A stretch of 64,000 nt of DNA, from assembly GCA_012295275.1 (NCBI GenBank), contig CM022676.1, positions 11,346,001 to 11,410,000 of the forward strand. Reading direction: 5' to 3'. Made by a program: the position numbers and the translations under genes. The first letter of the stretch is position 1; each line of letters starts with the position of its first letter. Below are positions 124-61,312 of the stretch, one piece after another. Under the pieces are notes generated by a model that was not told the origin of the DNA, did not search any database, and worked only from the letters and a program-made list of their open reading frames with translations. The stretch comes from Chrysomallon squamiferum. Taxonomy: Eukaryota > Animalia > Mollusca.

Positions 124-457
124 CGTATACTTGTACACCGATCTGTTTGTTAAAACTGAGTGAATTAAATTTTGTATTCGACAAGGAACAGTAGCCGTCG
201 TCGTAGCTGAAGAAGAAACCTGTACAGTCGACTTGGTTGTAGCATGACATTGCACACTCCAGTCTGCTGACGATGTTTAAATTAACTGTTGTAATGTTAA
301 CTGGTTTGAAGTCTTTGTAGAGAGTTGACAGTTTGAAATATTTATCTCCACACGTTGTCTGCGTGGTACACGACGTCATCATACTAAGTAAAACAATTAT
401 AGAACAAAGATTTGTGTTCTTTACGCGACAACACCTGAATAGTTGATACACTTCCAT
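124..457 (-). CDS. Copy A (type 1), exon 1 only: signal peptide + PAN/apple-like domain of a PAN-fibrinogen-domain protein; remaining exons lie left of the window
   Basis: ATG at 457; hydrophobic stretch [14 protein letters not shown]-like pattern [10 protein letters not shown]4-C-TGFFF-x6-C-SL; phase-1 donor G|GTAAGT at 124/123. Same 334-bp length as exon 1 of complete copies B, C, E, H. Confidence 0.85.
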
Positions 458-1233
458 CGTACGGTGACAGTTAAAAACAGCTGAAATGAAAGTTTATTTC
501 TAAATAACAAGATAATAAAATTAGTAAGTCTAACACCAATGAATCAATCCTATAGAATAAGTTCGAGTCGGACGATTTTAAAATGTAGCATCCAACAAGC
601 ACTGAAAGTTGGCGTATCAGCAGGTTAGATACATTTTAAACAAACACTTTTTCAGTTACCCGAGTTTCACTGTGTCAAGTTGCTTTAGTTTCATTAGAAC
701 CATTGTTGTCAGTTTGAAAGTCTTTCACCAAACTGTGATCAGATGTTCAGATATGATTGATTTATATTATTGTGTGTGTGTGTGTGTGTGTGTGTGTGTG
801 TGTGTGTGTGTGTGTATGTGCAGTAATCAATGTGTGACTCGTGTGATCTCTTGACAAAACAAACAGAATATTCAACGCAACATACAATTTGTGTCAGAAA
901 TCCAACATTTTCTCAACAGTGTAGATTGGAAAATAGATTTCATATCGAATGTTTCTTTCTTTCTTTCTTTCTTCATACGAAAACGAACTAAAAGTCATTT
1001 AATTTATTTCTTTTTTTTTTTATCTTTTTTTTTGATACGACGGTTCTTACATTTTGTTTAGTGACAGTTTTCTTTGTTTTACAAATTGATTAATCACTGG
1101 TTCATGTTTTAGGTGTCTCAGCGGGTGAGTTCAATTCGAAACACCGAAATGTGAAATCGAAGACATTAATATACAACACTGAACAAAACAAAAAGAATGA
1201 AAATTGGAATTCATTACAGATCACAAACACGAT

Positions 1234-1518
1234 AGAGAGAGAGAGAGAGAGAGAGAGAGAGAGAGAGAGAGAGAGAGAGAGAGAGAGAGAGAGAGAGAGA
1301 GAGAGAGAGAGAGAGAGAGAGAGAGAGACAGACAGACAGAGAGAGAGACAGACAGACAGAGAGAGAGAGAGAGAGAGAGAGAGAGAGAGAGAGAGAGAGA
1401 GAGAGAGAGAGACAGACAGACAGAGAGAGAGAGAGAGAGAGAGAGAGAGAGAGAGAGAGAGAGAGAGAGAGAGAGAGAGAGAGAGAGAGAGAGAGAGAGA
1501 GAGAGAGAGAGAGAGAGA
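1234..1518. repeat. (GA)n/(GACA)n microsatellite; paralogous tracts at about 25703-25811, 32495-32615 and, inverted, 50861-50964
   Basis: Directly visible; same position in each duplication unit. Confidence 0.95.
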
Positions 1519-58310: not shown

Positions 58311-61300
58311 ATGTACATTCTAGGTGTCACAGAATTCAGACAGTCTGTTTACCTTATTACAGTTTTAATCAGTTTCATAGTTCAGTTGTCTTATCAAAGT
58401 TCGTGTGGTAACAAAACATTTCGTGTTTCTTTTCTGTACAACGACTTGAAACCTCTGGAAACACCTTTATCCAGTCGCACTGTGTCCAGACAAGTATGCG
58501 CCATGAACTGTTTTGATGACGTCACGTGTACAGGAATTTTCGCAGACCATGACGTATGCTATATGTACAGTAAGAGATTTTATTTACTGTCGTTTGTCAA
58601 ACAAACTGGAATGAAAGCCTATGGTAAGTACTGTGTTGATCACCTGTAACATACACTCGCTGCTAATTCTAAACTTAAGTTCAGTACATTACAGTGTCTG
58701 GCCTCATTTTAGAACAAATTCAGTTCATTTCTTAACAAACACGCCTAAACTAGTTACCAGTGGTAACCGTTTCTCCGTGTGTAAGTGTCACCTAGAAAAA
58801 TTTAATAAGAAAATTGTATATGTATTACTTTAATAAATTAACATAAATATTTGGATAAATGGAAGGTCGGACTGAAGGACAGACGAATGGAGGAATGCAT
58901 AGATGGATGGATGGAAGGACAGAAGTTCAGATTTATGTATATTGCGTTCATACACTTTTTGTTGTTCTTCTAGAACATGTTTCAGGAAAACCTGGTGACT
59001 GCTATGACGTCATGATGCAGGGAAATTACGTCAATGGAGTTTTCACAATTAAACCACGTGATGGGGGAGATTCATTTGATGCGTTTTGTGAAATTTCACA
59101 CAACACTGAGGCGTGGCTGGTAAGTTAAACTTTTCTCTTGTTTCTTCGTAATTGTTTTTTCTTCTATCTTTCTGTTTCTTTCCAGAAATAAACAAAGACT
59201 CGTATATCTACCAGTGTATGTATGTATGTGTGTATGTCTGTATGTATGTTTGTAAGAATGCATCTATATATGTATGTGTGTATGTACGAGTCTATGTTTA
59301 TTTCTGGTTTTTCAGTGAGTAAGTACAGATGTCATAATGTATTAGAAGTAATAGTAGTAGTAGCATTAATAGTAGTTGTTGCTGTAAGAGTAATATCAGT
59401 AGTAGCAATATTAGCATTAGTAGTAATAACAGTATTAGTAGCAGCAGCACTACCTAGTCTTAGTCGTAGTAGTTCTTGTTGTTGTAATTGTAGTAGTAAA
59501 AGCGGTGGTGATTGAAAAGACAGTTGTGTAGTGTGATGATATTTTAATGTTTTTCAGGTTATTCAGAGACGGACAGACGGATCAGAAGAGTTCTACAGAG
59601 GATGGGATGATTATAAAACCGGATTCGGAAACGTAACAAATGAATTCTGGTTAGGTACGTTTATCATTCTGTCTGTGTCTGTTTGTGTGGTTTCGAGTCT
59701 ATGTGTATAACTGTATGTATCTATATGTACGTATGTATGTACGTATTTATGTATTTACGTCTGTATGTATGTATTATGTATGTATGTACCTATGTACGTA
59801 TGTATGTACGTATGTATGTATGTATGTAGTATGTATGTATGTATGTATGTATTATGTATTATGTATGTATGTATGTATGTATGTATGTATGTATGTATGT
59901 ATGTATGTATGTATGTATGTATGTATGTATGTATGTATGTATATGTATGCATGTACTCAAACATAGAGAATTAATTTCTGTGATGATGTTTGTTTCTTTT
60001 AACTGTAGCTAACAACTGTTTTAGTTTACCAGAAAGTGCTCTGTATTTTAGGAAACGAAAACATACACAGATTAACAAGTCAAGATAAATATGACCTGAG
60101 AATTGACTTGGAAGATTTTGACGGGAATACAGCCTACGCTGAGTATAAAGATTTTTCTGTGAGTTCAGAGGCAGACGGTTTCCGGTTGTCAATAGGAGCG
60201 TACAGTGGAAATGCTGGTAAGTGTATTTAAGATATAAAACATGTGAGATATACGTGATGTTTGTCGCTTACAGTCGTTATCCTATATATTAACAAAAATA
60301 ACTGAATAGATAAATAAATACAAATAAAAAAGTCTTGTTCTAACAGATTTATACTCATCGTTCGTTGATTCATATATTCTTTCATATTTCGTTCTTCAGG
60401 TTTCACAACGGTGAAATGAATAAATAAATGAATAAATAAACAAATACGTAGAAAAACAAGAAAAAAAATCAGGTGCATTAACATGTAGCTTTGTCTAGTA
60501 ATATTTATTTCTCTTTATTTTCTGATCCTGATAATAACTAACCAGTCAATATGTCTGTACGTACGTTTAGAGGTTTCTAAGTACGTTCATATATCTCTAC
60601 AATAATGAAATGTTTAATTTCCTCTTCACACCTCAATGCTTCCTCTGTTACTTGCAACGTTCCCAGAGTCAATAAATTACTTTTAATCTTGTAATAGTGT
60701 TTTACTTGTTATAGAATGACACTTATATCAGAAGGTGTTTGTAGAACTTCCATGCTGCCAGTCTGTTAGAACAAGCTATAAAAAAAATGATATCCTCTCA
60801 CATTAATATCATTATACAAAACAAATATATTTTGTTTCTAGAATAACCTGCTAACTTTTGATGTTATTGCAGAAATTTCTTAAATATTCATTAATTCGCT
60901 AATCTAAAAATTCAGTTATTCGTTTAGTCACTCTTTTATTCCATCTTTTCGTGACAGATTTATTTATAACAGCCTTTCCTTTTCATTAATGCGTTTTTAC
61001 TTCCTATTTTATTTCTTCACAAATTCTCACTAGTTATGTTTAATTTAATCAGGGGATGCTCTCGAGATACAGAATCATTGCAAGTTTTCCACAAAAGACA
61101 AAGATTTAGACAAATCCCGAGGAAGCTGTGCTGCTCTGTTTAAAGGCGCCTGGTGGTACAATGCGTGTCATCGTTCAAATCTGAATGGTCAGTATCTCAG
61201 AGGCAGCCATTCCTCAAAGGCTGATGGTGTAAACTGGTTAAAATGGCGAGGTCAGTATTACTCACTGAAGACAAGCGTTATGAAGATCAGACCGTCACCA

Positions 61301-61312
61301 TTGGTGAACTGA
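58311..61312 (+). CDS. Copy I (type 2) PAN + fibrinogen-domain protein, about 326 aa; exons 58311-58623, 58974-59119, 59558-59654, 60052-60216, 61053-61312
   Basis: GT-AG introns. The last exon is missing from the ORF track and translates as [86 protein letters not shown]. Confidence 0.9.

What the first reader, a model, noticed from the sequence alone, without database searches (positions are those of the whole stretch)
124..61312. Expanded cluster of secreted PAN/apple + fibrinogen-domain proteins: candidate diversifying pattern-recognition family
Seen: nine related five-exon genes in 61 kb. Exon 1 encodes a signal peptide and a PAN-like Cys scaffold, joined by a phase-1 intron and a linker of about 10 aa to a complete FBG domain. 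Established: the well-known FBG lectins carry collagen (ficolins), IgSF domains (gastropod FREPs), coiled coils (angiopoietin-like, FIBCD1) or nothing (tachylectin-5); PAN/apple domains bind protein or carbohydrate. Inference: this is a less-described two-module immune lectin, assembled by exon shuffling and undergoing birth-and-death expansion. I cannot confirm novelty without a search.
Basis: partly seen in the sequence, partly recalled or inferred. Interest (0 to 1): 0.85.

Follow-up and report, generated by a model that had tools for sequence, protein, structure and literature searches.

The report
Snail PAN-fibrinogen lectin gene cluster
Nine related gene copies in 61 kb, likely from a snail, join an apple-fold (PAN) domain to a fibrinogen-like domain and likely encode secreted sugar-binding defence proteins, but the same domain pairing is already on record in other snails, a mussel, corals and echinoderms, so this is an ordinary member of a little-studied kind.

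Summary
The cluster is real. There are nine exon-1 copies: six intact five-exon reading frames (326-332 aa), one frameshifted copy, one cut by the window edge and one cut by an assembly gap. Two copies (G1, G7) may be one locus assembled twice. Exon 1 has a PAN fold (pLDDT 82; Z 10.4 to the plasminogen PAN domain). The architecture is not new. Six Gigantopelta aegis RefSeq proteins share it and the same junction (50-66% identity). A Mytilus protein, coral proteins, and mollusc, echinoderm and cnidarian Atlas clusters carry it too. A 2020 paper cites PAN domains in Lottia fibrinogen-domain proteins. The calcium site and Cys-His of the acetyl pocket are kept, but two pocket walls vary. Exon 5, which holds the pocket, diverges while other exons stay near-identical; pN/pS is below 1 wherever synonymous differences could be counted. 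Splicing, secretion, ligand and immune role are inferred, not shown. Verdict: new member of a known, functionally uncharacterised kind; interest 0.25.

The parts
124..457 (-). G0, subfamily A: exon 1 (signal-like stretch + PAN); the rest would lie outside the window
   Evidence: GTAAGT donor
12806..14651 (-). G1, subfamily A, intact, 331 aa; exons 14651-14318, 14033-13888, 13661-13565, 13362-13198, 13059-12806
23259..25104 (-). G2, subfamily A, intact, 331 aa; exons 25104-24771, 24487-24342, 24220-24124, 23921-23757, 23512-23259
29905..31862 (-). G3, subfamily A, five exons but frameshifted at the start of exon 3, with a GC donor at intron 4: likely pseudogene, or a sequence error
36903..38767 (-). 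G4, subfamily A, intact, 331 aa; exons 38767-38434, 38167-38022, 37747-37651, 37447-37283, 37156-36903
45992..48981 (+). G5, subfamily B, intact, 332 aa; exons 45992-46304, 46710-46855, 47294-47390, 47812-47976, 48704-48981
52249..52880 (+). G6, subfamily A: exon 1 (52249-52576) and the start of exon 2 (from 52836), cut by the N gap at 52881-53080
54515..56374 (+). G7, subfamily A, intact, 331 aa; 5 coding bases differ from G1; exons 54515-54848, 55140-55285, 55509-55605, 55808-55972, 56121-56374
58311..61312 (+). G8, subfamily B, intact, 326 aa; exons 58311-58623, 58974-59119, 59558-59654, 60052-60216, 61053-61312
53081..56874 (.). 3.8-kb block, 96.7% identical to 12314-16045 inverted; each copy begins at the edge of an N gap

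Best explanation
These nine copies form a duplicated cluster of PAN + fibrinogen-domain (FReD) genes, likely from a gastropod related to Gigantopelta, that likely encode secreted, calcium-binding lectin-like proteins predicted to bind glycans on microbes through the fibrinogen domain. Shown: gene structure, PAN fold, conserved calcium aspartates and Cys-His, kinship with the Gigantopelta proteins, and uneven divergence along the gene. Inferred: the FBG P-subdomain (exon 5) binds acetylated or related sugars as in FIBCD1, tachylectin-5A and ficolins, with paralogues differing in specificity because pocket residues 405, 431 and 443 and the calcium loop vary. Also inferred: PAN replaces the collagen or coiled-coil stalk as a second binding or assembly module, and its first cysteine, unpaired in subfamily A (9 mature cysteines), could link chains. 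Copies likely arise by segmental duplication, and sequence exchange likely keeps some exons alike while exon 5 drifts apart.
For: Six open five-exon frames with canonical introns. PAN fold: pLDDT 81.6; Z 10.4, rmsd 2.0 A, 74 aligned to plasminogen, Z 9.7 to the HGF N domain, Z 8.8 to the lectin SML-2; profile hit to TgMIC4 at E 1.2e-6. The best solved relatives of G2 exon 5 are FIBCD1, ficolin-2 and tachylectin-5A. By FIBCD1 numbering (paper passages), D393, D395, C401, C414, H415 and A432 are kept in 7 of 7 genes. Window and Gigantopelta FBG domains form one clade, 100/99. Of the 16 variable exon-5 residues among G1-G4, 4 lie in the calcium loop (396-399) and 3 at pocket walls 405, 431, 443. 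G5 vs G8: 9 of 556 differences in exons 1-3 against 54 of 248 in exon 5. Exon-1 mosaicism: 59 of 210 site pairs incompatible, PHI-like p = 0.036. Lan et al. 2021 list FBGs among pattern-recognition receptors of peltospirid snails (passages), by annotation only.
Against: The canonical acetyl pocket is incomplete: Tyr431 is kept in 2 of 7 genes (Phe in 3, Gln, Lys) and the aromatic at 443 in 0 of 7, so acetyl-sugar binding may be weak or replaced. pN/pS is 0.22-0.78 in subfamily A and about 0.6 for B exon 5; synonymous divergence is high in exon 5 too, so there is no sign of positive selection. The closest PAN folds are protein- and heparin-binding domains rather than lectins. FReDs also serve non-immune roles (passage). 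G1 and G7 may be a single locus.
Confidence: 0.6

Rival explanations
1. They are structural or secretory matrix proteins (mucus, adhesive, shell or extracellular matrix, MFAP4-like), amplified for dosage rather than for recognition diversity.
For: Near-identical copies and homogenised exons; pN/pS below 1; incomplete acetyl pocket; MFAP4 is among the solved relatives of the Gigantopelta homologue. That a snail mucus protein, epiphragmin, is a FReD is recalled; only its reference title was seen.
Against: Amino-acid variation concentrates at the calcium loop and pocket walls; FIBCD1, ficolins and tachylectin-5A rank above MFAP4.
Confidence: 0.2
2. They are protein ligands: PAN binds heparan or a receptor as in HGF and plasminogen, and the FBG surface binds a protein partner as in angiopoietins and tenascins.
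For: The top four fold matches are plasminogen and HGF N domains; subfamily B has Gln or Lys in place of Tyr431.
Against: Angiopoietin and tenascin FBG domains score well below FIBCD1 and the ficolins; rapid copy turnover suits recognition genes better (inference).
Confidence: 0.12
3. Part of the expansion is an assembly artefact: G7 is the other haplotype of G1, so the true number of loci is eight or fewer. This can hold together with any of the functional readings.
For: A 3.8-kb inverted block at 96.7% identity whose two copies each start at a 200-N gap edge; the coding sequences differ by 5 bases.
Against: The other A copies differ by 6-12% in exon 5 and carry their own duplicated upstream blocks, so the cluster as such is not an artefact. 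A recent inverted duplication would also break an assembly at these places.
Confidence: 0.3

Closest known systems
Gigantopelta aegis PAN+FBG proteins (XP_041372883.1, XP_041372879.1, XP_041372731.1, XP_041372733.1 and P0105, P0106)
   Same: Same domain order, same short junction, 50-66% identity to the six intact window proteins, one FBG clade at 100/99. All six list a contig of 53,390,639 bases, so they may share a chromosome.
   Different: A different species. The window's A and B groups each branch apart from the Gigantopelta copies, so the young duplications are lineage-specific. RefSeq names them MFAP4-like, FIBCD1-like or ryncolin-like and does not name the PAN domain.
PAN-bearing FReDs of Lottia gigantea and Crassostrea gigas; the PAN-IgSF-FBG gene Bg179 of Biomphalaria glabrata
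   Same: PAN/apple together with FBG in molluscs, as stated in PMC7588048 (passages) and PMC5440852 (passage).
   Different: Bg179 also has an IgSF domain. The primary papers (Gorbushin 2010, Huang 2015) were not seen, so the exact Lottia and oyster architectures and any kinship to this cluster are untested.
FIBCD1, tachylectin-5A, M- and L-ficolin (acetyl-binding FBG lectins)
   Same: Best solved relatives of the FBG domain; calcium aspartates, Cys401-Cys414, His415 and Ala432 kept.
   Different: No collagen or membrane anchor and no room for a coiled-coil stalk; Tyr431 variable; the aromatic at 443 is absent.
Coral, mussel and echinoderm PAN(+EGF)+FBG proteins
   Same: Pfam PAN_1 + Fibrinogen_C in Oculina (3 proteins), Mytilus trossulus (1) and Atlas clusters.
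   Different: The coral and mussel FBG domains fall outside the window/Gigantopelta clade; a single clade is rejected. No echinoderm sequence was in the tree.

Membership tests
FReD (fibrinogen-related domain proteins) | C-terminal Fibrinogen_C domain | tested here: met
   Exons 2, 4 and 5 of G7 hit PF00147 above cut-off; complete domain in 6 spliced frames
PAN module | PAN fold with the four core cysteines | tested here: met
   C36, C40, C46, C58 invariant in 29 aligned rows; model pLDDT 81.6, Z 10.4, rmsd 2.0 A over 74 residues; Pfam cut-off passed in 2 of 9
Six-cysteine apple domain (factor XI / prekallikrein type) | Third disulfide closing the two ends (definition recalled) | tested here: not met
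   Only five cysteines in the mature exon-1 part, none at its C-terminal end
Gastropod FREP | One or two IgSF domains before FBG | tested here: not met
   No Ig family in the Pfam scan of 9 exon-1 translations; a 9-residue linker leaves no room
Gastropod FREP | Somatic diversification | not testable with these tools
   Needs cDNA and DNA reads of single animals
Ficolin | Collagen-like stalk | tested here: not met
   No Gly-X-Y run in the spliced proteins; no collagen hit in exon 1
Acetyl-binding FBG lectins (FIBCD1/TL5A type) | Calcium site and Cys401-Cys414-His415 | tested here: met
   7 of 7 genes
Acetyl-binding FBG lectins (FIBCD1/TL5A type) | Aromatic pocket Tyr405, Tyr431, Trp/Tyr443 with Ala432 | tested here: inconclusive
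   405 Tyr in 5 and Phe in 2; 431 Tyr in 2, Phe in 3, Gln, Lys; 443 aromatic in 0 of 7; Ala432 in 7 of 7
Secreted PAN-FReD | Cleaved signal peptide | tested here: inconclusive
   Hydrophobic 11-mer near the N-terminus in 7 of 7 and no later membrane-like stretch; no SignalP available
Secreted PAN-FReD | Exon 1 spliced to exon 2 in mRNA | tested here: inconclusive
   Canonical phase-1 intron and the same junction in Gigantopelta RefSeq models; no direct transcript evidence obtained
Immune pattern-recognition receptor | Binds microbes or is induced by them | not testable with these tools
   Needs expression and binding assays

The most novel reading that the evidence does not exclude
A PAN-FReD array specific to Gigantopelta-like vent snails works as a set of microbe-sorting receptors. 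Gene conversion keeps the PAN module or the FBG core alike while the pocket exon escapes and is re-paired among copies, giving a common disulfide-linked scaffold with different glycan specificities that help admit symbionts and exclude other bacteria.
Probability: 0.12. Interest if true: 0.55.

Novelty: new member of a known kind. Interest (0 to 1): 0.25.

Why it matters
PAN+FBG proteins are widespread in invertebrate databases, but my nine literature searches found no paper testing what they do. This cluster offers a handy natural series: paralogues 98% alike in exons 1-3 and 78% alike in the pocket exon (G5, G8), which isolates the determinants of specificity. If the host is a symbiotic vent snail, they are candidate symbiont-recognition lectins. 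As a discovery of architecture it is ordinary.

Tried and rejected
No whole genome is held, so genome-wide copy number is unknown. A search of longer proteins with G6 exon 1 gave 0 hits among 29 candidates; this was a sensitivity limit, as later searches found relatives. The first fold from 8 near-identical rows failed (pLDDT 36.5) and was replaced by a 29-row alignment. Foldseek gave no match at E <= 0.001, though its top rows are PAN or apple domains. A PAN homodimer prediction returned no answer (score 0.02, alignment not used); it is not used for or against. RNA: no RNA holder listed. Of 3 RNA-library runs laid on G8, one 669-base contig of X3 covers 60048-60217, almost exactly exon 4, with 6 differences and no joint reported; it cannot be called a spliced transcript. 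No reads were laid on subfamily A. Run X1 (kind not on record) covers introns, with two different contigs over intron 1 and exon 4; it may be related to the source and is not independent support. Positive selection was rejected: no region with synonymous differences had pN/pS above 1; B-type PAN and exon 3 had 1 and 2 nonsynonymous and no synonymous differences, too few to judge. Five other open frames had no Pfam hit; the long open frames are satellite DNA. Three look-ups of earlier findings returned nothing. Two papers were not held. Gene ids in the Lan et al. expression tables could not be matched to the PAN-bearing proteins; that paper's main supplementary PDF was too large to read and may bear on this.

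Full report
Observation. The window is AT-rich, satellite-laden animal DNA with two 200-N gaps. tblastn with the window's own exons finds nine exon-1 copies, named here G0-G8. G0-G4 lie on the minus strand and G5-G8 on the plus strand. Seven have all five exons. Six splice into open frames of 326-332 aa with GT..AG introns in phases 1, 0, 1, 1. G3 is frameshifted at the start of exon 3: none of six nearby acceptors keeps the frame, and it has a GC donor. G0 leaves the window and G6 ends at a gap. There are two subfamilies: A (G0-G4, G6, G7; 88-100% nucleotide identity per exon among the five complete ones) and B (G5, G8), which are 61-79% identical to A. G1 and G7 differ by 5 coding bases and sit in a 3.8-kb inverted block at 96.7% identity whose copies each begin at a gap edge. 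They may be haplotypes of one locus.

The PAN domain. Pfam gives PAN-type hits for all 9 exon-1 translations, 2 of 9 above the PAN_1 cut-off. A profile search of 1.84 billion representatives returned 36 hits, among them a full-length PAN+FBG protein and many isolated signal+PAN exons from unnamed assemblies. With 29 rows the model reached pLDDT 81.6. Its best matches among 48,161 chains are plasminogen (Z 10.4, rmsd 2.0 A, 74 aligned), HGF (9.7, 2.0 A, 74), the lectin SML-2 (8.8, 2.6 A, 72) and TgMIC4 (8.3, 2.0 A, 65). Four cysteines are invariant; a fifth near the mature N-terminus is common; there is no sixth. Mature A proteins have 9 cysteines and B proteins 10, so one is likely unpaired in A. 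An interchain bond is inference only.

The FBG domain. G2 exon 5 matches FIBCD1, ficolin-2 and tachylectin-5A best. Using the residues named in PMC3908420 (passages), Asp393, Asp395, Cys401, Cys414, His415 and Ala432 are kept in 7 of 7 genes. Tyr405 is kept in 5 (Phe in 2), Tyr431 in 2 (Phe 3, Gln, Lys), and the aromatic at 443 in none. Calcium binding is therefore likely; acetyl-sugar binding is plausible for G2 and G4 and doubtful for subfamily B.

Pattern of divergence. G5 and G8 differ at 9 of 556 bases in exons 1-3 and 54 of 248 in exon 5. Among G1-G4 (G7 left out as a near copy of G1), variable columns are 38 of 334, 14 of 146, 1 of 85, 3 of 165 and 39 of 254 for exons 1-5. Seven of the 16 variable exon-5 residues are in the calcium loop or at pocket walls. 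Synonymous divergence also rises in exon 5 (pS 0.235 against 0.022 in exons 3-4), and pN/pS is 0.22-0.78 across regions of subfamily A. Exon 1 looks mosaic (59 of 210 informative site pairs incompatible; PHI-like p = 0.036). The simplest reading is patchy gene conversion or unequal crossing over, with exon 5 escaping, and not measurable positive selection. The copies are not independent, so these p-values are only indicative.

Relatives. Among 62 longer proteins found with G8 exon 5, 5 carried a precomputed PAN_1 (1 Gigantopelta aegis, 3 Oculina, 1 unnamed). A fresh scan added PAN_1 above cut-off in other Gigantopelta proteins and one Mytilus trossulus protein. Six Gigantopelta proteins align with the window proteins over PAN and FBG at 50-66% identity and have the same junction; PAN_1 passed the cut-off in 4 of the 5 scanned. 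In an FBG tree of 40 rows (34 of 66 database candidates kept for a near-complete domain, 6 window genes, G3 left out), window and Gigantopelta rows form one clade at 100/99. The Mytilus and coral PAN proteins fall elsewhere, and one clade for all 17 PAN-bearing rows is rejected (AU p = 8.1e-5). Not all 23 other rows were rescanned for PAN, and gains cannot be told from losses. The ESM Atlas, queried with the Gigantopelta stand-in P0020, gave 11 of 30 feature hits with Fibrinogen_C + PAN_1; the top clusters have 61, 87 and 75 members (PAN share 16%, 68%, 72%; Mollusca, Echinodermata), and cnidarian clusters follow. The host is thus likely a gastropod related to, but not, G. aegis.

Literature. 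PMC7588048 (passages) states that PAN/apple domains are known from four Crassostrea gigas genes and some Lottia gigantea FReDs, and from one Biomphalaria PAN-IgSF-FBG gene, also noted in PMC5440852 (passage). The primary papers were not seen (not held; Huang 2015 not requested). PMC7895826 (passages; supplement rows; main supplementary PDF unread) counts FBGs among pattern-recognition receptors of peltospirid snails without mentioning PAN in the passages read. PMC9835746, PMC4346834 and PMC10075465 (passages) added no PAN-FBG data. Nine searches found no functional study of a PAN+FBG protein; the library lacks most subscription journals, where much of this field is published.

Mechanism and verdict. 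Most likely these are secreted calcium-binding lectin-like FReDs that bind microbial glycans with paralogue-specific preferences, with PAN as a second binding or assembly module (0.6). Rivals are a matrix or mucus role (0.2) and a protein-ligand role (0.12); a copy number inflated by assembly (0.3) is compatible with any of them. Splicing, secretion, ligand and expression remain untested. The thing is real and worth a line in a genome paper, but the architecture is already on record across several phyla: new member of a known kind, interest 0.25.

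Noticed in passing
window 17463-22204, 28519-29156, 35556-36011: A 91-bp minisatellite (52, 7 and 5 copies, 96-98% matches) recurs between successive subfamily-A genes, so it travels with the duplication unit and changes copy number fast.
   Followed up: no
window 45419-45860; also 2589-3005, 26795-27237, 33649-34066, 40609-40947: A non-coding element of about 430 bp, 81-83% identical, lies upstream of G5 and of G0, G2, G3 and G4 in the same orientation relative to each gene, although A and B exon 1 are only about 63% alike; it could be a shared regulatory block, a 5' UTR exon or a repeat.
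   Followed up: partly
window 41698-45161 and 3492-12113: A 34-bp satellite (about 102 copies) between the head-to-head G4 and G5, and a 9-kb TTG-rich complex satellite upstream of G0; both give very long spurious open frames.
   Followed up: partly
window 63263-63661 (+): An open frame whose end resembles the tail of a non-LTR reverse transcriptase (resemblance recalled); no Pfam hit at E 0.1.
   Followed up: partly
   Followed up: no
window 48704-48981 and 61053-61312: Subfamily B has an extra cysteine early in exon 5, making the mature count even; it might pair with the free PAN cysteine.
   Followed up: no
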